UHGV virus genome: UHGV-0311442
DNA: 64,000 nt
Direction: 5' to 3' (one strand)
DNA from: a virus
This document shows, piece after piece, positions 40,724 to 50,183 of this stretch. Under the pieces are notes generated by a model that was not told the DNA's origin, ran no database searches, and saw only the letters and a list, made by a program, of their open reading frames with translations. How positions within the stretch are numbered: position 1 is the stretch's first letter; every line of letters begins with the position of its first letter. The position numbers were made by a program, and so were the translations under genes.

Positions 40724-41233
40724 TTAGAAGAACGGCTGGTTTGGAATGACAGCGTACTCTAAAATGAACATGTGTTCTGGGGCGTCTTCTTTACGCCAGA
40801 CTTTGTGCGTCGTCACAAGTTTTTCCAGAATCGTTAAAAAACTACGCTGGCAGTATGTGTTTTCACCAAGCAGTAGATTTTGAAGTTCTACAGTAGCGTC
40901 CATATACGCCTGTTTAAAGACTAAACTACGATTATACTGTCCGGTAAAATTCCAAAGCAAGACTTTCCCTTCTTCGGTTTCTTTTACCGTTGGCCGTAAA
41001 CCACAAATCCACAACAAGGCAAGGTTGACGTTCCAGTCAAACTCTAAACCTTCTTCTTCGTCATCACCGAATGCTGTGGGTAAAGCATCGTAAAATTCGT
41101 GTTTCTCTGCGAATTCTTCATCTGACTTAATCTCGTCTTCGATGCTGCTTCGGACGATACTGTAAACGTCTTTCGCGGTCAATTGTGCGGCTTTTGTAAT
41201 GCCTTTATACCAATCGGTTACTACGATGCTCAA
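40724..41233 (-). CDS. Hypothetical protein (169 aa)
   Basis: ORF between the lytic transglycosylase and the membrane protein. Confidence 0.5.
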   Translation of the reverse strand: MSIVVTDWYKGITKAAQLTAKDVYSIVRSSIEDEIKSDEEFAEKHEFYDALPTAFGDDEEEGLEFDWNVNLALLWICGLRPTVKETEEGKVLLWNFTGQYNRSLVFKQAYMDATVELQNLLLGENTYCQRSFLTILEKLVTTHKVWRKEDAPEHMFILEYAVIPNQPFF

Positions 41234-41955
41234 AGGGTAACTCCTCTATTGATTGGAAAACTCGTGTTTATCGTATCCCAAATTTTACTAACTTCCGCCA
41301 ATTGAATCTGACGTGGTGTTTTCTTCGCAAACGCAAGCTGACGTGGGGCCGAGCCCACAACAACAGGCACATCGATTTTCGCGCTATAGAACGCGGCGTC
41401 TTTCATAAAGCCTGCCATTTCTCGTTGTGCTGCTCGAGATTTGCTTTTGATTCGCGTGTGAGCGCCACTTTCACCCCAGTGGTAAGCTAACGCAACTTCA
41501 GCCATGGTGGGCTTGCGTTTGAGTCGTTTGGTTAACCCCTTTTCAAGATGTTTAACATACGCGGCAGCCAGCAAAACAGCATTACGCGGATTATACAAAT
41601 CGGCGTTCTGACTAAGACCTAATTCTTTTCCATAAAGCCTTAGCAGATTACGCTTGGTACTTGGAAGCATCTGTACCAGGCTGTGTGCTCGTGAGCTTTT
41701 GTTGTAAGCCTTGGGATCAAAACGCGATTCACGATAAATCAGCGTAATCATCAGCTTAGGATCAACGCCTTGCTTTCGAGAGATTTCCACAATTAACGGG
41801 CTGACTTTTTCGAACCGATGTTGGATTTGTGTAAACTCACGCTGATGCTTAGATTGCGGCGTTGATGTTGACGCCTGTGCGTTAAACGCGAAAAGTGTTA
41901 CCAGTAAAAGAAAGAAGATACGAAACATTTTGTTTCTCCAGTTGGATTTATACAT
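41230..41955 (-). CDS. Secreted or signal-anchored soluble lytic transglycosylase; endolysin candidate
   Basis: N-terminal hydrophobic segment MFRIFFLLLVTLFAFNAQA, then SLT motif LIYRESRFDPKAYNKSSRAHSLVQMLPST. Start may be the internal Met at about 41928. Confidence 0.6.
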   Translation of the reverse strand: MYKSNWRNKMFRIFFLLLVTLFAFNAQASTSTPQSKHQREFTQIQHRFEKVSPLIVEISRKQGVDPKLMITLIYRESRFDPKAYNKSSRAHSLVQMLPSTKRNLLRLYGKELGLSQNADLYNPRNAVLLAAAYVKHLEKGLTKRLKRKPTMAEVALAYHWGESGAHTRIKSKSRAAQREMAGFMKDAAFYSAKIDVPVVVGSAPRQLAFAKKTPRQIQLAEVSKIWDTINTSFPINRGVTL

Positions 41956-42020
41956 TTCCGTATTCCGTAAGACGAAATGACGGCGCGGACAGCTAATACT
42001 CCTTTGTTGTGTGCCCTAAT

Positions 42021-42031
42021 GATAATATCTA
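42021..42031. promoter_or_regulatory. Copy of recurrent motif GATAATATCTA
   Basis: Overlaps the stop of the macro-like gene, upstream (in minus orientation) of the lytic transglycosylase gene. Confidence 0.3.
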
Positions 42032-42589
42032 TTTAAAAGAGTTTGGAATTAATGACTCTGCTTCTCGGTACAGCTTATCGGGTAAGTATAACGTGTAGTG
42101 TTGTCTCCTCGGTTCAAGTTTTTTGTAAAGCCACAAAAAGATTTCTTGTCTTTCCCAGGAATCTAACCACCCATTTGCCATCCCCAGTGGAGGGATAGCA
42201 ACGCTGGTATCCAGTTCCTCAACACAATCTGCTAATGCGGTAATGCCCGCAGTAACATAAGAAACCTGGGACTTTAAACGCCAATGTGTTTTCGTTGGGA
42301 GCAAGATGCACTTTTCATCAGGGTAAACGTAAACGCTTCCAATCTTAATTTCGTCTTCGCGACACCGCTTACGGTAATCTTGATAAAGGTTGGGGTAGCG
42401 TTCACGGCACGCCAGTGCAATACCGCGACCCATCGCTCCTACGCAGTTAATGGTAACGACTTTATAGTCTTCGGGCGCATTAAAAAGATCGTTACCAATT
42501 TCAGATTCTTTACGTACCGTTAACATAACGAAACGCCCGGAGTTGATGTGTAGTATTAAAACGTGTACCGCCGATTGATAACTCGACAA
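42029..42589 (-). CDS. Macro-domain-like protein (putative ADP-ribose binding or processing)
   Basis: YKVVTINCVGAMGRGIALA fits the Gly-rich macro loop pattern and SVAIPPLGMANGWLD fits the second macro motif; probable start at internal Met near 42526. Confidence 0.4.
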   Translation of the reverse strand: MSSYQSAVHVLILHINSGRFVMLTVRKESEIGNDLFNAPEDYKVVTINCVGAMGRGIALACRERYPNLYQDYRKRCREDEIKIGSVYVYPDEKCILLPTKTHWRLKSQVSYVTAGITALADCVEELDTSVAIPPLGMANGWLDSWERQEIFLWLYKKLEPRRQHYTLYLPDKLYREAESLIPNSFK

Positions 42590-42613
42590 GTATAGCGATA
42601 TATGTTTTACCCA

Positions 42614-42982
42614 TTAGCGATTTTTCGTAATCCATTGTTTGACCGCCGCTTCTAAACCTTCGTGTTGTAAGCCCAGGCGTTGCATAGTCAGCGCCAAGTT
42701 GAGCGTGTGCACAACCTGTTCACGGAACTGATGATCGTTCATGCGGTCCCAGACCTTCTCTACCGAAATATTGTGTTTCCAGAGCAAATAAGCTTCGCGA
42801 CACGATGCGCGACGAACCAAGCTGGGTTTAACAAAAGGCAACTCGATTTCAGGCAAGTAACCTAAAAGCTTAACTAGCGGCGTTACCTGCGTCTTACCGA
42901 AGTCACCGCACTGATAACAAATTTGTAGAATATCAATTTCATTCAACGGTATACCGTAAATTGATGGGTTCTCTGTGAACAT
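42614..42982 (-). CDS. Hypothetical protein (122 aa)
   Basis: ORF with ATG start. Confidence 0.45.
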   Translation of the reverse strand: MFTENPSIYGIPLNEIDILQICYQCGDFGKTQVTPLVKLLGYLPEIELPFVKPSLVRRASCREAYLLWKHNISVEKVWDRMNDHQFREQVVHTLNLALTMQRLGLQHEGLEAAVKQWITKNR

Positions 42983-43250
42983 TCATATTCTCCTCAGGCT
43001 CGAAATGTGTTTCGGGTGGCAACGTCCCTAAAGCCCCTTGGATACAAGCTGTCAGCGTAGGTTTGCCGAAACAGACCTTACCTATTGTCCCCACATTGGG
43101 ATGCTGTAAGAACGCTTTTGCACGTTCGTATTCCTTCCAACAAATACTCGTATCCAAACCACCCACTCCGTACGATTTTAACATAATTAGCTCTCTTGAC
43201 GTAAATTTCTCACACTCATAGTGAGGTACGTCAAGAGAGCTTGATTGTTT

Positions 43251-43700
43251 TTAGAATGTTTTGCTAAAATCGACCCACTCACGATCGTGCGAGTAAACCG
43301 CCTGATAGCCGCGTCGGATGAAATACTCTTTTGCTTCTTTACATTTCGCATACATGCCAGTAACAATCTCGCCGAAAACTTCATCAGCTGCAATTGCTTT
43401 GAAAATCTCTTTCATTACACCCCGTTGACGGTAGTCTGGGAGCACGTATACTGAACGTATCTTAAGTGAACCGTTACGATTCCGATAACTACAGTATCCT
43501 ACCGCGACGTCATCCTGATACACCAGAACTATGCAGTTACCTTCGATCAGTTGCCGAGCTTTTAATTTCGGTACCGACGTTTTGATTTTCAGTAACGTGG
43601 CCTGGTGGTCTAAGTAACGGTAGTGCAGTTTGAGTAAATCGGCAGCTTGTCGCTCACCGACTTTAGAAGATGCGTTCAACAAATAAATTTCCATTTGCAA
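43251..43700 (-). CDS. GNAT-family N-acetyltransferase
   Basis: 149 aa; VAVGYCSY...IRSVYVLPDYRQRGVMKEIF matches the GNAT acetyl-CoA-binding motif A. Confidence 0.65.
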   Translation of the reverse strand: MQMEIYLLNASSKVGERQAADLLKLHYRYLDHQATLLKIKTSVPKLKARQLIEGNCIVLVYQDDVAVGYCSYRNRNGSLKIRSVYVLPDYRQRGVMKEIFKAIAADEVFGEIVTGMYAKCKEAKEYFIRRGYQAVYSHDREWVDFSKTF

Positions 43701-43725
43701 ACCTTAGAGACGCAAAAAAGTAAAA

Positions 43726-43854
43726 TTAAAACCAACGCGCGATGACGAAAGCCGCAGCGGCTAATATGGCTGTGGTGATTATTAACCCACCCCATGAAAG
43801 TTCCGCGTCGTATAGTGCGGATATCGCTACATTCGTAGCGTTTATCGTGGTCAT
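43726..43854 (-). CDS. Small hydrophobic peptide (42 aa)
   Basis: ATG with GGAGCAGAAA upstream; MTTINATNVAISALYDAELSWGGLIITTAILAAAAFVIARWF; below ORF-track size cutoff. Confidence 0.3.
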   Translation of the reverse strand: MTTINATNVAISALYDAELSWGGLIITTAILAAAAFVIARWF

Positions 43855-43911
43855 TTTCTGCTCCTATCAATACCCTCACACCGGAGGGTATCTTCTGGAT
43901 TATTTGGGTGG

Positions 43912-44010
43912 TTAATCTTCGAACGCCCAACGGTGTCGTTTAATCAGCCAGTTTAAACCTTTACCAATTAACCACAACGAGCCAAGTGTTAACAGAACCC
44001 CTACAACCAT
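43912..44010 (-). CDS. Small hydrophobic peptide (32 aa)
   Basis: ATG with AGGAGAGG upstream; MVVGVLLTLGSLWLIGKGLNWLIKRHRWAFED. Confidence 0.3.
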   Translation of the reverse strand: MVVGVLLTLGSLWLIGKGLNWLIKRHRWAFED

Positions 44011-44020
44011 ATTCCCTCTC

Positions 44021-44200
44021 CTAATTCCGCCATTCGCATTCGCGTTGACGCCAAATTGAACCCCACGATAGTTTAATCAGATAAGATGAAACTACCCATA
44101 AAATCATCACCACACAAAACATGACATAAAGAACCGCTAGAATGGACATGAAGCCAAACCCTGCCGCATCCACAATACGACGGAACCAATCAGTTTGCAT
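44021..44200 (-). CDS. Small membrane protein (59 aa)
   Basis: ATG at 44198-44200 with AAGGAG upstream; hydrophobic core FGFMSILAVLYVMFCVVMILWVVSSYLI. Confidence 0.4.
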   Translation of the reverse strand: MQTDWFRRIVDAAGFGFMSILAVLYVMFCVVMILWVVSSYLIKLSWGSIWRQRECEWRN

Positions 44201-46694
44201 AAACAATTTTTACTCCTTCGTTATACACCGCAGGCAATGTCACCCCTTCCGGTTCGATGACACAGTACGATGCTTCATTAAGTTTAGAATGAACCTCGGC
44301 TTCGTGGGAGACTACCAACAGTTGTGAAAATTCTCCTGAGTTTGCTAACGTTTTAATAAAGCCGACCAGGTTGTTACGGTGCTCCTCATCCATGCCCTCC
44401 GAAGGTTCATCCAAAAGCAACGGAAACTGATGCAACTTCAGCGCTTTGTACGCAGTCAGTCTGAACATCAGATTAAATATCGCACGCTGCGCCTTTGACC
44501 CTTTACGCACGTCAGGAACAGGCTCAGGATGCGTTTTTAGCTGGACAGGAAAAGTATAATCCAAATCGCCGTCAGTGAGATCACAAGGCATAACACGCAT
44601 GGGGTACGTCCAGACCTGTTCGATATAACGCGTCATTAACTCTGTGATTCTAACGATAGCGTTGTAAAAATACTTTCTAAGTACACCCTTTTCTGGCGAG
44701 AAGGCTTGAATCATCAGTTTGTTATTGAACTGCTGGGCTTGTAAGTCAGCAAGTTCGCGTTCCAAACTGTTGAGCTGGTTCAATTCATTTTCCATCTGAC
44801 GATAACGTTCGCGTGCGGTTGTAAAAGCATCCAGCTTCCCTTCTCGTGTACGTAAGAGTTCCTCGACGACCGTATTTGTCAACGTAACCTTAACGTCACT
44901 CTCTAACCGTTCGAATAACGCACTGAAATCATCTACAGCACGTTTAACATTCACTAGATAGGTAAGTGTCGTGTTAGCCAGTTCGTGCTCTCTACGACGC
45001 ATTGAGAGCATCTCTGTGGCTTTACCTAATCGCGACTGTTGGAAGGCGATCTTTTGTTGTAAAGCACCATCGACGTTACCAACGGCCGCTACGGCATCCT
45101 GCCATTCTTTTTCCGCCTTCACTAACCGTTGTCTGGTTTCATGGTACTCAATAGCAGAGTACAACTCACCGTCAAACGCTGCGCATAGACTCCCGAACTG
45201 CTCGCGAGACTCTGTGAAAACGTTACGTTCTTGCAAACGCTTAAAGAACATACTCAAAACAGGGTCCTTTGAATACGTCAGTACAATCTCACGAACCTGC
45301 CGCATATAAGTTACATCAGATTCTAATTCAACACGATCGCGTAATAAGGTCTCTAACTGCGTTTGCAGTTCCGTGCGCTGCTGTTGCTGTCCACGAATCG
45401 AAGACTCAAGTTCAGGCAAAGAACGCGTAACGCCTGGTCGAAACTTAAACCGACACTGCGGACAATCCACTTCCGCTGTTTCTAAGTAGTGGTTACGTTC
45501 GTGATTTAAATTCTGTAAAACGTTCTCCACTCGCTGGAGTCTATCCCGCAACCCGGCGGTTTTTTGATCCATCACCAGAAGCCGTTCTTCCAAAACATTG
45601 AGTTTTTCGGTCGAATGAATTGCGTCCAGCGTTGTTCCTAACCGTTGTCCCCAAACACGCGCGTCGGTAGCCGCACGAAGTTGGTCTAAATTGACGTTAT
45701 CGTTAAATAGACCCGGAAAGAGATGTTCAGTGTCCCATTTGGTAAGTAACTCACGTAAACGTGCCAGCGTATTCTTGAGACCTTCGTGATTCCGCATCAG
45801 GTAGTCCTGTCGTGTCGACTCATCCATCAATAACGACAAGTCTTTATTCAACATCGATACCTCTGTTTCAGTAGACACGACAGCTTCGCGGGCGGTCGCC
45901 TCGTTTTGTCGTGCGACCTGTATCTGTTCATCAGTAGGCAGACCACCACGATGTTGTAATATTGCGTCGATGGTTGGACCCAAGCTGTTTAATGACGCTT
46001 GGATTGTTTCGATGGTGACGCCGCGATTTAATCCTGGCAACTGTTCGATTTCTCGGTTCAGTTCACGTAAATCCGATTCCAAACCTTTTAATCTCGTCGC
46101 TAACTGCTGCCGTTCTTCCTCGTTCTCAATAACACGCGTCCGTAATTCGGCGATCTTACGGCTGGTGATTTCAATACCCCCATTTAAGGCAGTAAGGTTT
46201 TTACGTAAACGTTGATAAAACCCTAACGCGTAAGTGAGGTCAGAGGTGCTTAAACGGTAAAACCACTTGCGACGTAATTCGGTTCCCGCATCGGTTAACA
46301 AGACCTCACCATTTAATAGTTCTTTAATTTCTTTCGTAATACCCGTGATTTCTTCAACACGGGAGTTGTAGACTTTCGCATTACCTTGCTCGACGATCTT
46401 TGCCCCCGTGGTCAGGTTCTCAATATCACAAACCAAAGAGTTGCCTTTACGGGCAACTTTGAATCGATAGCGTTGATCGCCGACTAAACAGTAATTCGTG
46501 TAAGAACCGCCGTCCCTGAATTCAGTTTTAGCTGGTGCTAAGGGTAAGAACACAGACAGTAGACTGGTTTTCCCGCAGCCGTTCCCACCCAGGATAATTG
46601 TTGTTGGAGACTGGATAGTGAAATCGAAGGTTTCAATTTCATGTAACCCCATCCCCGTAAAACCTTTGAGTATAATGCGTTCAACTTTTAGCAT
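44190..46694 (-). CDS. Rad50/SbcC-like ATPase with coiled coil and CxxC zinc hook
   Basis: Start refined to ATG at 46692-46694 (GGAGGTG upstream; track start is TTG at 46769). Walker A GGNGCGKTS, long coiled coil with central CPQC, C-terminal LLLDEPSEGMDEEH and VVSHE. Confidence 0.75.
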   Translation of the reverse strand: MLKVERIILKGFTGMGLHEIETFDFTIQSPTTIILGGNGCGKTSLLSVFLPLAPAKTEFRDGGSYTNYCLVGDQRYRFKVARKGNSLVCDIENLTTGAKIVEQGNAKVYNSRVEEITGITKEIKELLNGEVLLTDAGTELRRKWFYRLSTSDLTYALGFYQRLRKNLTALNGGIEITSRKIAELRTRVIENEEERQQLATRLKGLESDLRELNREIEQLPGLNRGVTIETIQASLNSLGPTIDAILQHRGGLPTDEQIQVARQNEATAREAVVSTETEVSMLNKDLSLLMDESTRQDYLMRNHEGLKNTLARLRELLTKWDTEHLFPGLFNDNVNLDQLRAATDARVWGQRLGTTLDAIHSTEKLNVLEERLLVMDQKTAGLRDRLQRVENVLQNLNHERNHYLETAEVDCPQCRFKFRPGVTRSLPELESSIRGQQQQRTELQTQLETLLRDRVELESDVTYMRQVREIVLTYSKDPVLSMFFKRLQERNVFTESREQFGSLCAAFDGELYSAIEYHETRQRLVKAEKEWQDAVAAVGNVDGALQQKIAFQQSRLGKATEMLSMRRREHELANTTLTYLVNVKRAVDDFSALFERLESDVKVTLTNTVVEELLRTREGKLDAFTTARERYRQMENELNQLNSLERELADLQAQQFNNKLMIQAFSPEKGVLRKYFYNAIVRITELMTRYIEQVWTYPMRVMPCDLTDGDLDYTFPVQLKTHPEPVPDVRKGSKAQRAIFNLMFRLTAYKALKLHQFPLLLDEPSEGMDEEHRNNLVGFIKTLANSGEFSQLLVVSHEAEVHSKLNEASYCVIEPEGVTLPAVYNEGVKIVYAN

Positions 46695-46772
46695 ACCCAC
46701 CTCCATAAAGACGGAGTGTGGTGTAAAAAGAAAAAAATAAAGAAAGGGAGAACCCGAAGGTTCTCCCAAACG

Positions 46773-47381
46773 TTATTTGGTGTACAGGTGATAACCCATT
46801 GAAGTCCAATAATCGACGTTCTTCGTGTTTTCTACCCAAACCTGTCCCGCCTTTGTGGCTAAGACTTCCATTGTCAATGTACAGATCAGATTTGTTACCG
46901 GGATACAATTTCCAGGTGTAACATCATCCAGATAAACCGGATATAAAAACGGCGATTTAATGGATTGGTACGGGTAAGAATAGTGGCTACCGACCTTCCA
47001 CCCTTCTTCTACAGGACAGAGATTAAAAGTGCGTGTTTCAGGAACTGCGTTTTCAGAGATCCAGTTAACAACATCGGCTTTAATTCGATCGTGGTCGATA
47101 TAGTAGAACACAACACGTTGTGGGATACTTGTGGTACCAGCCGGGTCTAAAGCCTCCAACGCCTTAAAAGGCGACGTTAACAATGTTGTACTGTTCTCAA
47201 GCGCGTAAACCAACTTTTCGTAAGCAGTCGGTGTTTTACGTTTAAAATATTCCCGTAAGCGAGGGTATGCCAGGAAGCCCTCTACTTCTTCTTCCATTAA
47301 GTCAATGAATAAAGGCGTATGCGAAAAGCGTTCTGCATTTTGCATCGCTTCAAGAAAACGAACTAATGTAATTTCGTTCAT
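46773..47381 (-). CDS. Hypothetical protein (202 aa)
   Basis: ORF upstream of the Rad50-like gene; no metallophosphatase motifs. Confidence 0.5.
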   Translation of the reverse strand: MNEITLVRFLEAMQNAERFSHTPLFIDLMEEEVEGFLAYPRLREYFKRKTPTAYEKLVYALENSTTLLTSPFKALEALDPAGTTSIPQRVVFYYIDHDRIKADVVNWISENAVPETRTFNLCPVEEGWKVGSHYSYPYQSIKSPFLYPVYLDDVTPGNCIPVTNLICTLTMEVLATKAGQVWVENTKNVDYWTSMGYHLYTK

Positions 47382-49721: not shown

Positions 49722-50183
49722 TTATTTGTTAGGACGGGTGTGCCCACAGTTTTGGAAGAAAGTTTCAGATAAACGATCGCCTTCTACGGTAAAGTTAGCG
49801 GCATCGTTACCATTGATACTCACACTGAAAGTTTTGGCATTACCGATAGCATTAACGAAAGCAACCCAAGCGTGTTCTGCCTTGTCACTACCGTCCACGG
49901 TAGGGATGTTATAGGTTTTGCCGTTTACGACAATATCCATCGTGTTATCTTCAGCGTTAGTTGCACCTACGGGTTCCCCGTAATACCAAACCATGCGACC
50001 GTAAAATTTGCGATTCGCAGTTTCAGTGTCACAGTTGATAGACAGTCCGTTTCCGGCGGTGTCTTCAATTTCGTAAACTGCCTGGCCAGGGTTTTGTATT
50101 TGTTCCCAGCTGTTGATAGCGGCGTGTGCAGTATTGAAACCGATTACGAAAAGGGCGATTAAAAAGGAAGTGAAGATTTTCAT
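49722..50183 (-). CDS. Secreted protein S5 (153 aa)
   Basis: Signal peptide MKIFTSFLIALFVIGFNTAHAA; first gene of the secreted-protein run. Confidence 0.5.
   Translation of the reverse strand: MKIFTSFLIALFVIGFNTAHAAINSWEQIQNPGQAVYEIEDTAGNGLSINCDTETANRKFYGRMVWYYGEPVGATNAEDNTMDIVVNGKTYNIPTVDGSDKAEHAWVAFVNAIGNAKTFSVSINGNDAANFTVEGDRLSETFFQNCGHTRPNK

What the first reader, a model, noticed from the sequence alone, without database searches (positions are those of the whole stretch)
42029..43700. Macro-like domain protein near a GNAT acetyltransferase: candidate ADP-ribosylation or acetylation counter-defence
The protein at 42029-42589 shows a Gly-rich loop (NCVGAMGRGIA) and a second motif (SVAIPPLGMANG) that fit the macro-domain pattern. 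Macro domains bind or hydrolyse ADP-ribose derivatives, and a GNAT acetyltransferase lies two genes away. Such enzymes could reverse host ADP-ribosylation-based defences or consume NAD-derived signals; no such role is established for this gene.
Basis: partly seen in the sequence, partly recalled or inferred. Interest (0 to 1): 0.6.

Follow-up and report, generated by a model that had tools for sequence, protein, structure and literature searches.

The report
Jumbo-phage AdfM macrodomain, anti-DarT2 enzyme
The gene is a real macrodomain enzyme, the counterpart of the recently described jumbo-phage protein AdfM that strips a host defence's ADP-ribose marks off phage DNA, so it is a valid but already explained finding, and the nearby acetyltransferase shows no sign of working with it.

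Summary
A minus-strand ORF at 42029-42589 encodes a macrodomain protein. Its real start is most likely the ATG at 42526, giving 165 aa. A GNAT gene (43251-43694) lies two genes upstream.

The macrodomain is specifically of the DarG2 type:
- PDB sequence matches to the M. tuberculosis and T. aquaticus DarG macrodomains have E 5e-26 and 5e-21.
- The PADLOC DarG profile scores 5e-37.
- The AlphaFold model (pLDDT 93.6) matches 5M3E, 5M3I and 5M31 best.
- The catalytic Asn27 and Lys79 are invariant.

It lacks DarG's C-terminal DarT-binding domain, and the window holds no DarT.

The window comes from an uncultivated phage of about 225 kb, related to SPN3US and Asesino (Chimalliviridae). The protein is 62% identical to, and syntenic with, Asesino gp217. 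Morgan et al. (Cell Rep 2026) name that protein AdfM. They showed that PhiKZ AdfM removes DarT2 ADP-ribose from ssDNA and is needed on DarTG2 hosts.

The most likely function is therefore an orphan-antitoxin DNA ADP-ribosylglycohydrolase, inferred by orthology.

The GNAT link is not supported. GNAT orthologues are confined to one clade, while the macrodomain is widespread, and PhiKZ AdfM neutralises DarT2 with no other phage protein present.

This is a new member of a known kind and of low interest. One side note: the GNAT's constant neighbour is an 81-aa protein that resembles the N-terminus of EF-Tu.

The parts
42029..42526 (-). adfM-like gene: a stand-alone DarG2-type macrodomain of 165 aa. 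The stop codon is at 42029-42031. The catalytic Asn27 lies in TINCVGAMGRG and the catalytic Lys79 in LLPTKTHWR.
   Evidence: Family and structure matches: Pfam Macro; PADLOC DarG, E 5e-37 over profile positions 7-151 of 329; NCBIfam DarG, 124.8 bits over positions 7-155 of 338; PDB 5m3i and 5m31, E 5e-26 and 5e-21. The AF2 model has pLDDT 93.6 and its best Foldseek matches are 5m3e, 5m3i and 5m31. Identity is 62% to Asesino gp217 (AdfM) and 37% to PhiKZ gp104. N27 and K79 are invariant in a 30-sequence alignment.
42527..42589 (-). In-frame stretch from the first TTG to the real ATG. It is probably the untranslated leader or intergenic region and not part of the protein.
   Evidence: Homologues and gene calls are 165 aa. 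SPN3US has a stop codon immediately upstream of its Met. There is no DNA or amino-acid conservation upstream.
42614..42982 (-). Conserved hypothetical gene of 122 aa (phrog_11720) lying between the GNAT and the macrodomain. Context only; function unknown.
   Evidence: PHROG hit, E 9e-31. Homologues at about 42% identity sit at the same place in SPN3US and Asesino. There is no Pfam or PDB hit. dN/dS is 0.08.
42939..43184 (-). Small 81-aa gene directly downstream of the GNAT. Residues 14-53 resemble the first ~37 residues of EF-Tu, but the P-loop is degenerate. Context only.
   Evidence: NCBIfam EF-Tu models score E 1e-4. BLASTP against the E. coli EF-Tu N-terminus gives 19/40 identities. All 59 PDB hits at E<=1 are EF-Tu. 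The motif H-x-NVGTIG-x-V is invariant in the SPN3US and Asesino homologues. The gene always follows the GNAT, in 48 phage records.
43251..43694 (-). GNAT-family N-acetyltransferase gene of 147 aa, substrate unknown. It is a neighbour of the macrodomain gene, not a demonstrated partner.
   Evidence: Pfam Acetyltransf_1, _7 and _10 all score above their cut-offs, and phrog_3810 matches. Orthologues at 33-39% identity occur only in SPN3US/Erwinia-type phages of about 240 kb. The AF2 model was unusable (pLDDT 51).

Best explanation
The gene at 42029-42526 (minus strand) encodes a stand-alone DarG2-type macrodomain. It is the orthologue, in an uncultivated enteric chimallivirus related to SPN3US and Asesino, of the anti-DarT factor AdfM.

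Proposed mechanism:
1. On infection of a host that carries a DarTG2 toxin-antitoxin defence, the DarT2 toxin ADP-ribosylates thymidines in single-stranded phage DNA at TNTC motifs. This blocks replication and packaging.
2. The phage macrodomain binds the ADP-ribose moiety through its two glycine-rich loops (N27-x-x-G-x-M-G-x-G and P-P-L-G-x-x-x-G).
3. Using the conserved Asn27/Lys79 pair, it hydrolyses the ADP-ribose-thymidine bond and restores unmodified DNA.

It acts as an orphan enzymatic antitoxin. It lacks DarG's C-terminal DarT-binding domain, so neutralisation would be purely catalytic.

Shown here: the fold, the subfamily, the catalytic residues, orthology and synteny, the absence of DarT and of the C-terminal domain, and purifying selection.

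Inferred from published work on orthologues: the substrate (DarT2-modified ssDNA), the counter-defence role and import into the phage nucleus.

The GNAT two genes upstream is a lineage-specific neighbour and is not part of this mechanism.
For: Sequence:
- Pfam Macro scores above its gathering cut-off.
- PADLOC DarG gives E 5e-37. DarG is the only NCBIfam hit for this protein.
- The PDB sequence search returns the Mtb and Taq DarG macrodomains (E 4.9e-26 and 5.2e-21), then the Thermosipho DarTG.

Structure:
- The AF2 model has pLDDT 93.6 and pTM 0.90.
- Foldseek ranks 5M3E, 5M3I and 5M31 first (E ~4e-13, TM 0.78-0.85, rmsd 2.0-2.2 A). 7OMU and TARG1 also rank in the top six.

Catalytic residues:
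- N27 and K79 align with Taq DarG N22/K80 and PhiKZ AdfM N23/K78.
- Both are invariant across 30 homologues.

Orthology:
- 62% identity (E 3e-73) to Asesino gp217, YP_009290835.1. Morgan et al. list that protein as an AdfM and show that it localises to the phage nucleus.
- The gene order SMC - small ORFs - GNAT - hypotheticals - macro - SLT transglycosylase is shared with Asesino and SPN3US.
- Both of those genera belong to Chimalliviridae.
- The window also carries phiKZ-type genes, an RNAP beta fragment and a PHIKZ182-like protein.

Function in the family, for PhiKZ AdfM, which is 37% identical:
- It removes DarT2 ADP-ribose from an ssDNA oligonucleotide, and the N23A mutation reduces this activity.
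- It rescues DarT2 toxicity.
- Its deletion costs 3-6 logs of titre on DarTG2 hosts.

Orphan status:
- No DarT2 homologue is found by tblastn in the 64 kb.
- The adjacent ORFs have no Pfam hit.
- The window holds only one macrodomain ORF.

dN/dS is 0.08.
Against: - No activity, substrate or phenotype has been measured for this protein or for any member of its SPN3US-type subclade. For Asesino gp217 only localisation was shown.
- Identity to the biochemically tested PhiKZ AdfM is only 37%.
- In my NJ bootstrap the SPN3US-type clade (78/100) never groups with PhiKZ gp104 (0-1/100). Functional transfer therefore rests partly on shared descent from DarG2-type macrodomains rather than on strict orthology with the tested protein.
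- DarG-type macrodomains also occur in other architectures, for example fused to SLOG/DprA-like domains or placed at the C-terminus. The fold class is therefore not exclusively tied to DarT2.
- The host is unknown; relatives occur in Salmonella assemblies. Whether it carries DarTG2 was not tested.
- Chimallin and PicA were not seen in this 64-kb window.
Confidence: 0.75

Rival explanations
1. The macrodomain is an ADP-ribosylhydrolase, but its natural substrate is not DarT2-modified DNA. It would instead remove ADP-ribose from proteins or RNA. Possible sources are other host ADP-ribosyltransferase defences or toxins (mRNA- or EF-Tu-targeting ARTs) or the phage's own ARTs.
For: - The structurally next-closest characterised enzyme outside the DarG/DarTG entries is TARG1. 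By my background knowledge, TARG1 is a lysine-dependent protein de-ADP-ribosylase.
- DarG-type macrodomains occur in architectures other than DarTG.
- The SPN3US-type clade is phylogenetically separate from the tested PhiKZ AdfM.
- Iyer et al. report macrodomains in 56% and ARTs in over 40% of jumbo phages.
- A neighbouring gene mimics the EF-Tu P-loop region, which the Salmonella toxin TreTu ADP-ribosylates.
Against: - Sequence similarity to DarG macrodomains (E 1e-26) is far stronger than to any protein-targeting macrodomain. TARG1 is not detected by sequence at E<=1.
- Morgan et al. describe DarG2 macrodomains as acting only on DNA ADP-ribosylation.
- The Asesino orthologue localises to the phage nucleus, where the DNA is.
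- The residue equivalent to EF-Tu D21 is not conserved in the neighbouring mini-protein: Cys, Ala or Asp.
Confidence: 0.15
2. The macrodomain acts on small molecules. Candidates are O-acetyl-ADP-ribose, ADP-ribose-1''-phosphate ('Appr-1-p processing', 'phosphatase') or NAD-derived immune signals such as the Thoeris cyclic ADP-ribose isomers. The effect would be to blunt SIR2/TIR-type defences.
For: - Database annotations of homologues read 'phosphatase', 'Appr-1-p processing protein' and 'O-acetyl-ADP-ribose deacetylase'.
- There are weak PDB sequence hits to an ADP-ribose 1''-phosphate phosphatase (E 0.02-0.06).
Against: - Those names are generic, inherited macrodomain labels.
- The hits to small-molecule-processing macrodomains are more than 20 orders of magnitude weaker than the hits to DarG.
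- No MacroD/YmdB-type entry appears in the sequence search.
- The protein carries the DarG/TARG1-type catalytic Lys in PTKxHW rather than MacroD-type motifs.
- NCBIfam returns only DarG for this protein.
Confidence: 0.05
3. The macrodomain and the GNAT form one functional module, a coupled acetylation and ADP-ribose counter-defence.
For: - The two genes lie on the same strand, 0.7 kb apart.
- No strong predicted terminator lies between them.
- Both are present in the same order in SPN3US- and Asesino-type phages.
Against: - GNAT orthologues are confined to 49 records of one clade. Macrodomain homologues occur in 263-276 records across many phage groups.
- The AdfM neighbourhood of a PhiKZ-like phage (Churi) has no annotated acetyltransferase.
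- PhiKZ AdfM neutralises DarT2 on its own in E. coli.
- The number of intervening genes varies: 2 here, 4 in SPN3US and Asesino.
- The GNAT diverges much faster (33-39% against 58-66% identity).
- The GNAT's constant neighbour is the 81-aa EF-Tu-like gene, not the macrodomain.
- O-acetyl-ADP-ribose is made by sirtuins, not by GNATs (background knowledge), so there is no biochemical reason for a link.
Confidence: 0.03

Closest known systems
Chimallivirus AdfM (anti-DarT factor macro): PhiKZ gp104, PhiPA3 gp108, Goslar gp83, Asesino gp217 (Morgan et al., Cell Rep 2026, PMC13309987)
   Same: - A stand-alone DarG2-like macrodomain of about 160 aa encoded by a Chimalliviridae-type jumbo phage.
- The catalytic Asn and Lys are conserved.
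- 62% identity and conserved gene order with Asesino gp217.
- 37% identity to PhiKZ gp104.
   Different: - It comes from a different, uncultivated phage lineage, with no megablast match in the phage collection.
- The SPN3US/Asesino-type proteins form their own clade, which does not join PhiKZ gp104 in my NJ bootstrap.
- The genomic neighbourhood differs from that of PhiKZ-type phages.
- Enzymology and genetics exist only for the Pseudomonas phage proteins.
DarG (DarG2) antitoxin of DarTG2 systems: T. aquaticus and M. tuberculosis DarG macrodomains (PDB 5M3E, 5M31, 5M3I); NCBIfam NF048014; PADLOC DarG
   Same: - They give the best sequence and structure matches.
- The protein has the same macrodomain subclass, with equivalents of N22 and K80.
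- Identity over the domain is 33-43%.
   Different: - Only the N-terminal half of the DarG profile is covered (positions 7-155 of 338). The NCBIfam score of 124.8 is below the 250-bit cut-off.
- There is no C-terminal DarT-binding domain.
- There is no adjacent or nearby darT.
- The gene is phage-encoded rather than part of a bacterial toxin-antitoxin operon.
T4 AdfM (Tk.4), the anti-DarTG2 macrodomain found by HIDEN-SEQ (bioRxiv 10.1101/2025.11.20.689424)
   Same: A stand-alone phage macrodomain that is required on DarTG2 hosts. It has the same proposed mechanism and the same name.
   Different: - It is only distantly related: 19-26% identity, BLASTP E 2e-4.
- In the alignment Tk.4 has FNLYTQF where the DarG-type proteins have FPTKxHW, so the catalytic Lys is not conserved.
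- It is therefore a different macrodomain subfamily and not an orthologue.
AdfN, the orphan DarG1-like NADAR proteins of T-even and other phages (Johannesman et al., Nat Commun 2025, PMC11825919)
   Same: The same strategy: a phage carries an orphan antitoxin-like enzyme that removes DarT-installed ADP-ribose from DNA.
   Different: A different fold (NADAR rather than macro), a different modified base (guanosine rather than thymidine) and a different system (DarTG1 rather than DarTG2).
Human TARG1 (C6orf130), PDB 4J5Q/4J5S
   Same: It is the closest characterised structural neighbour outside the DarG/DarTG entries (TM 0.71-0.84). By my background knowledge it is also a lysine-dependent macrodomain hydrolase.
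   Different: Identity is only about 19%. It is not detectable by sequence search. It is a eukaryotic enzyme that acts mainly on protein-linked ADP-ribose.

Membership tests
Macro domain superfamily (Pfam PF01661) | Profile match above the curated gathering score | tested here: met
   26.8 bits against a cut-off of 22, E 5.4e-6. The long relatives score 58-79 bits.
Macro domain superfamily (Pfam PF01661) | Three-layer alpha/beta/alpha macro fold | tested here: met
   AF2 model with pLDDT 93.6 and pTM 0.90. The top Foldseek PDB hits are overwhelmingly macrodomain structures; the remainder are designed serine hydrolases and one uncharacterised protein (2dx6). No LOG or other Rossmann family appears.
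Macro domain superfamily (Pfam PF01661) | Binds ADP-ribose | not testable with these tools
   The residues of the two glycine-rich binding loops are invariant in the alignment. Binding itself needs ITC or a crystal structure.
DarG antitoxin (DarTG2; NCBIfam NF048014) | DarG-type macrodomain with catalytic Asn22/Lys80 (Taq numbering) | tested here: met
   N27 and K79 align with them and are invariant. PADLOC DarG gives E 5e-37.
DarG antitoxin (DarTG2; NCBIfam NF048014) | C-terminal DarT-binding domain, i.e. a full-length match above the curated cut-off | tested here: not met
   The protein is 165 aa. Only profile positions 7-155 of 338 are matched, and the score of 124.8 bits is below the 250-bit cut-off. 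The PADLOC match covers positions 7-151 of 329.
DarG antitoxin (DarTG2; NCBIfam NF048014) | Encoded next to a darT (DUF4433) toxin gene | tested here: not met
   The adjacent ORFs have no Pfam hit. tblastn with a P. aeruginosa DarT2 finds nothing in the 64-kb window (best E 3.9).
AdfM (chimallivirus anti-DarT factor macro) | Stand-alone DarG2-like macrodomain of about 160 aa with the conserved catalytic Asn (PhiKZ N23) and Lys (K78) | tested here: met
   The paper's figure legend gives N23 and K78.
AdfM (chimallivirus anti-DarT factor macro) | Orthology to a named AdfM, by sequence and conserved gene order | tested here: met
   62% identity over 159 aa, E 3e-73, to Asesino gp217. There is a single matching place per genome. 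The order SMC...GNAT...macro-SLT is shared. gp217 is listed as an AdfM in the paper.
AdfM (chimallivirus anti-DarT factor macro) | Encoded by a nucleus-forming chimallivirus | tested here: inconclusive
   The window is syntenic with Seoulvirus and Erskinevirus, both in Chimalliviridae, at 50-68% amino-acid identity. It also carries phiKZ-type RNAP beta and virion genes. However, chimallin and PicA were not found among the large ORFs examined in this 64-kb window.
AdfM (chimallivirus anti-DarT factor macro) | Removes DarT2-installed ADP-ribose from ssDNA thymidine, and protects the phage on DarTG2 hosts | not testable with these tools
   Shown only for PhiKZ AdfM, with genetic evidence also for PhiPA3 AdfM.
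AdfM (chimallivirus anti-DarT factor macro) | PicA-dependent import into the phage nucleus | not testable with these tools
   Nuclear localisation was shown by GFP fusions for the Asesino, PhiKZ and PhiPA3 proteins, and PicA-dependent import for PhiKZ gp104. No import signal is defined that could be scanned for.
MacroD/YmdB-type O-acetyl-ADP-ribose deacetylases | Closest similarity to MacroD-type macrodomains | tested here: not met
   No MacroD or YmdB entry appears in the PDB sequence search at E<=1. NCBIfam returns only DarG for this protein. The PTK-type catalytic Lys is present instead.
   None appears among the top 50 Foldseek PDB matches, and there is no Pfam LOG hit.
GNAT acetyltransferases (gene 43251-43694) | Profile match above the curated cut-offs | tested here: met
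   Acetyltransf_1 33.1 bits (cut-off 20.7), Acetyltransf_7 32.8 (27) and Acetyltransf_10 26.9 (23.6).
GNAT acetyltransferases (gene 43251-43694) | Assignable subfamily or substrate (RimI, ArsN2, AcrVA5-like, TacT-like) | tested here: inconclusive
   Only sub-threshold NCBIfam hits: ArsN2 28.6 bits against 125, RimI 17.3 against 86. There is no PDB sequence hit. The AF2 model was unusable (pLDDT 51).

The most novel reading that the evidence does not exclude
The SPN3US/Asesino-type stand-alone macrodomain may not be a strict orthologue of PhiKZ AdfM. It could be a separate capture of a DarG2-type macrodomain, possibly with its own substrate range. It sits in a small variable accessory island. 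The other clade-specific members of that island are a weakly RimI-like GNAT that is always followed by a mini-protein mimicking the EF-Tu N-terminus and P-loop region. These two could form a second, undescribed counter-defence or host-takeover module directed at processes that target EF-Tu.
Probability: 0.1. Interest if true: 0.55.

Novelty: new member of a known kind. Interest (0 to 1): 0.22.

Why it matters
The value of this result is confirmatory. It assigns a specific, testable function, enzymatic reversal of DarT2 DNA ADP-ribosylation, to a gene that most phage records label 'hypothetical', 'phosphatase' or 'Appr-1-p processing'.

It extends the AdfM family to an uncultivated lineage of enteric jumbo phages of about 225 kb, whose DNA turns up in Salmonella assemblies and in metagenomes. 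This implies that DarTG2 exerts real selective pressure on enteric chimalliviruses. It is also relevant to predicting the host range of jumbo phages considered for therapy.

It does not open a new question. The mechanism, the name and the biology were published in 2025-2026. The only open threads are whether the SPN3US-type and PhiKZ-type AdfM proteins were acquired independently, and what the adjacent pair of GNAT and EF-Tu-like mini-protein does.

Tried and rejected
- Megablast of 41000-45000 against the phage collection gave no match. The phage had to be placed by protein searches instead.
- The 186-aa reading from TTG 42589 was rejected. The tblastn alignment that seemed to extend upstream in SPN3US runs through a stop codon, and the upstream DNA is not conserved.
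- A phage-borne DarTG operon was rejected. There is no DarT in the window and no DarG C-terminal domain.
- GNAT subfamily assignment failed:
  - The protein search returned only homologues at 86% identity or more.
  - The AF2 model had pLDDT 51, so no fold search was run on it.
  - The PDB sequence search found nothing.
- The protein search for the 81-aa ORF returned only 2 close homologues, so no structure was attempted.
- The listing of cluster members for 10 representatives returned no names or taxa. The origin of the stand-alone clade members, phage or bacterium, could not be labelled except where they were already known phage proteins.
- The first bootstrap script timed out. It was redone with a faster distance routine.
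- The sigma-70 promoter scan found fewer sites than in shuffled sequence (6 against 9.0 expected). This is uninformative for a phage that uses its own RNA polymerases.
- No test was made of whether TNTC motifs are depleted, or of whether DarTG2 is present in the likely hosts.
Full report
**1. Observation**

The minus strand carries an ORF at 42029..42589 (186 aa counted from a TTG).

The match to macrodomains is not a chance resemblance:
- Pfam Macro (PF01661) scores 26.8 bits against a gathering cut-off of 22.
- PHROG 335 scores E 6e-36.
- The PADLOC DarG profile scores E 5e-37.

The real start is almost certainly the ATG at 42526, which gives 165 aa:
- Every close homologue, and every gene call on related contigs, is 165 aa.
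- SPN3US has a stop codon immediately before its own Met. The apparent upstream similarity in tblastn runs through that stop.
- The upstream DNA is not conserved.
- The predicted fold starts at residue 2 of the 165-aa form.

A GNAT gene lies at 43251..43694 (147 aa). It scores above the cut-offs of three Pfam GNAT families. Two same-strand ORFs of 122 aa and 81 aa separate it from the macrodomain gene. Against a relative with about 87% nucleotide identity, all four genes show dN/dS of 0.06-0.16. They are therefore real genes under selection.

**2. What kind of macrodomain it is**

The PDB sequence search puts the M. tuberculosis and T. aquaticus DarG macrodomains first (5m3i, E 4.9e-26; 5m31/5m3e, E 5.2e-21). 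The Thermosipho DarTG (7omu) follows. Small-molecule 'Appr-1-p phosphatase' macrodomains score only E 0.02-0.06.

NCBIfam returns a single family, the DarG antitoxin equivalog. Only profile positions 7-155 of 338 are matched, and the score of 124.8 bits is below the 250-bit cut-off. PADLOC likewise covers positions 7-151 of 329.

An AlphaFold2 model built on a 30-sequence alignment is confident (pLDDT 93.6, pTM 0.90). Foldseek against the PDB ranks 5M3E, 5M3I and 5M31 first (E ~4e-13, TM 0.78-0.85, rmsd 2.0-2.2 A). 7OMU is fourth and TARG1 is in the top six, followed by viral nsP3 macrodomains. No LOG or other Rossmann family appears in the top 50.

The residues Morgan et al. mark as catalytic are Taq DarG N22/K80 and PhiKZ N23/K78. 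They align with N27 and K79 here. Both are invariant across 30 homologues.

**3. It is an orphan, not a DarG antitoxin**

- The protein consists of the macrodomain alone.
- The neighbouring ORFs have no Pfam hit.
- tblastn with a P. aeruginosa DarT2, taken from the paper's methods, finds nothing in the 64 kb (best E 3.9).
- A six-frame scan finds only this one macrodomain ORF.

Two defining features of DarG are therefore tested and not met: the DarT-binding C-terminal domain and the adjacent darT gene. The protein works like the DarG macrodomain but is not a DarG.

**4. Genomic setting**

Megablast finds no phage record, but protein searches place the window clearly. The best tblastn hits, at 58-66% identity, are SPN3US-like Salmonella phages, Proteus phage 7 and Erwinia phages such as Asesino and phiEaH2.

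The gene order is SMC-like ATPase, small ORFs, acetyltransferase, hypotheticals, macrodomain, SLT transglycosylase. It is the same in SPN3US and Asesino.

Seoulvirus and Erskinevirus are genera of Chimalliviridae. The window also encodes a phiKZ-type RNA polymerase beta fragment, a UvsX-like recombinase and a PHIKZ182-like virion protein.

The exact 165-aa protein sits on metagenomic scaffolds of about 225 kb and on a contig of NCBI assembly GCA_013957665.1. Proteins 90% identical to it occur in Salmonella enterica assemblies. The window is 94-97% identical in DNA to those scaffolds.

It is therefore an uncultivated enteric jumbo phage, and Salmonella is a plausible host. Chimallin itself was not among the large ORFs I examined, so nucleus formation is inferred from relatedness.

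**5. Comparison with what is known**

Morgan et al. (Cell Rep 2026, PMC13309987) describe exactly this protein family as AdfM, 'anti-DarT factor macro'. The macrodomain is found in about half of chimalliviruses.

What they showed:
- PhiKZ gp104 removes DarT2-installed ADP-ribose from a TNTC ssDNA oligonucleotide, and the N23A mutation reduces this activity.
- PhiKZ gp104 rescues DarT2 toxicity in E. coli.
- The PhiKZ, PhiPA3 and Asesino proteins localise to the phage nucleus.
- PhiKZ and PhiPA3 deletion mutants lose titre on DarTG2 hosts, 3-6 logs in the case of PhiKZ.

Their alignment lists Asesino gp217 (YP_009290835.1) as an AdfM. The window protein is 62% identical to gp217 (E 3e-73), lies in the same gene order, and is 37% identical to PhiKZ gp104.

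Two further reports set the context:
- The HIDEN-SEQ preprint independently named T4 Tk.4 'AdfM' as an anti-DarTG2 macrodomain. Tk.4 is only 19-26% identical to the window protein and lacks the PTK lysine in the alignment. It is a different subfamily.
- The analogous orphan-antitoxin strategy against DarTG1 uses the NADAR proteins AdfN.

**6. Most likely mechanism**

The protein is a catalytic orphan antitoxin. DarT2, released on infection, ADP-ribosylates thymidines in single-stranded phage DNA. The macrodomain binds the ADP-ribose through its two glycine-rich loops and hydrolyses the linkage using Asn27 and Lys79, restoring replicable and packageable DNA.

- Shown here: the fold class, the catalytic residues, orthology and synteny, orphan status and purifying selection.
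- Inferred from orthologues: the substrate, the counter-defence role and the nuclear localisation.

I put this explanation at about 0.75.

Two caveats apply. First, no member of the SPN3US-type subclade has been assayed. Second, in my NJ tree of 170 macrodomain segments the window protein falls in a clade of 25 stand-alone proteins (78/100 bootstraps) that includes SPN3US gp070 and Asesino gp217. PhiKZ gp104 joins that clade in only 0-1 of 100 replicates. The window protein is also slightly more similar to bacterial DarG macrodomains (40-43%) than to PhiKZ gp104 (34%) in the joint alignment.

This tree is NJ only, rests on 154 columns and samples sequences biased towards the query. It hints at two AdfM lineages but does not prove them.

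DarG-type macrodomains also occur in other architectures:
- Among 1,933 representatives at E<=1e-10, many are proteins of 300-390 aa. Some match the full DarG profile.
- Others have the macrodomain at the C-terminus or fused to SLOG/DprA-like domains.

**7. The GNAT**

A functional link with the macrodomain is not supported:
- GNAT orthologues (33-39% identity) occur in only 49 phage records, all of them SPN3US/Erwinia-type phages of about 240 kb.
- Macrodomain homologues occur in 263-276 records, which include PhiKZ-like phages, coliphages of about 76 kb and others.
- The AdfM locus of a PhiKZ-like phage (Churi) has no annotated acetyltransferase.
- PhiKZ AdfM works alone in E. coli.
- The genes between the GNAT and the macrodomain number two here and four in SPN3US and Asesino.

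The GNAT's substrate could not be narrowed down. There are only sub-threshold NCBIfam hits to ArsN2 and RimI and no PDB sequence hit. The AlphaFold model was unusable (pLDDT 51) because only near-identical homologues were retrieved.

**8. Noticed in passing**

The 81-aa ORF directly downstream of the GNAT resembles the first ~37 residues of EF-Tu:
- BLASTP gives 19/40 identities.
- NCBIfam EF-Tu models score E ~1e-4.
- All 59 PDB hits at E<=1 are EF-Tu.
- The motif H-x-NVGTIG-x-V is invariant in the SPN3US and Asesino homologues, and Asesino carries the exact EF-Tu 12-mer HVNVGTIGHVDH.
- The P-loop lysine is not conserved, so the protein is not a GTPase.

It occurs in the same 48 phage records as the GNAT and always follows it. 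Some Erwinia phage records already call it 'putative elongation factor Tu'.

The Salmonella toxin TreTu ADP-ribosylates EF-Tu D21 in this very loop. The equivalent residue here is Cys, however, and it varies between phages. A decoy role is therefore only speculation.

**9. Verdict**

The macrodomain and counter-defence reading is right, and it can be sharpened to 'AdfM orthologue, anti-DarTG2'. The GNAT coupling, the NAD-signal role and the O-acetyl-ADP-ribose role are not supported.

Because the family was named and characterised in 2025-2026, this is a new member of a known kind and of low interest (0.22).

Noticed in passing
window 42939-43184 (-): An 81-aa ORF directly downstream of the GNAT has residues 14-53 that resemble the first ~37 residues of EF-Tu. 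The motif H-x-NVGTIG-x-V is invariant in the SPN3US gp074 and Asesino gp213 homologues, but the P-loop Lys is lost. It occurs only in the 48 phage records of the clade that also has the GNAT, and always immediately after the GNAT. Some Erwinia phage records annotate it as 'putative elongation factor Tu'. Its function is unknown; a decoy or mimic role is speculative.
   Followed up: partly
whole window; related loci L004-L009: The window belongs to an uncultivated jumbo-phage lineage of about 225 kb. It has no megablast match in the phage collection. It is 94-97% identical in DNA to ENA metagenome scaffolds and to a contig in NCBI assembly GCA_013957665.1. A relative with about 87% identity lies on a 226-kb contig of a Salmonella enterica assembly.
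   Followed up: partly
window 42029-42526 versus PhiKZ gp104 and T4 tk.4 (L010 6923-7390): The name 'AdfM' covers at least two, possibly three, unrelated or deeply split macrodomain lineages. T4 Tk.4 is only 19-26% identical and lacks the DarG-type PTK lysine in the alignment. The SPN3US/Asesino-type clade does not group with PhiKZ gp104 in an NJ bootstrap (0-1/100).
   Followed up: partly
proteins P0050, P0056, P0057, P0061, P0065, P0070 (representative library): DarG-type macrodomains scoring 200-232 bits on the NCBIfam DarG model occur in architectures other than the usual DarG one. In some the macrodomain is at the C-terminus of a protein of about 340 aa with an unannotated N-terminal half. 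In one it is fused to a DprA/SLOG-like domain.
   Followed up: no
window 49722-50183 (-): A 153-aa ORF corresponds to genes on related contigs that carry a precomputed Pfam PF27224 (YfjT family) hit. One relative (L008) has two tandem copies.
   Followed up: no
window 46746-46767 (-) and 44190-46769 (-): A strong terminator-like hairpin (9-bp stem with 6 GC pairs, followed by a T-run) lies just downstream of gene 46773-47381. It falls inside the mechanically listed 859-aa SbcC/SMC-like ORF. Gene calls on relatives give 834 aa, so the true start of the ATPase is probably near 46694 and the hairpin is intergenic.
   Followed up: no
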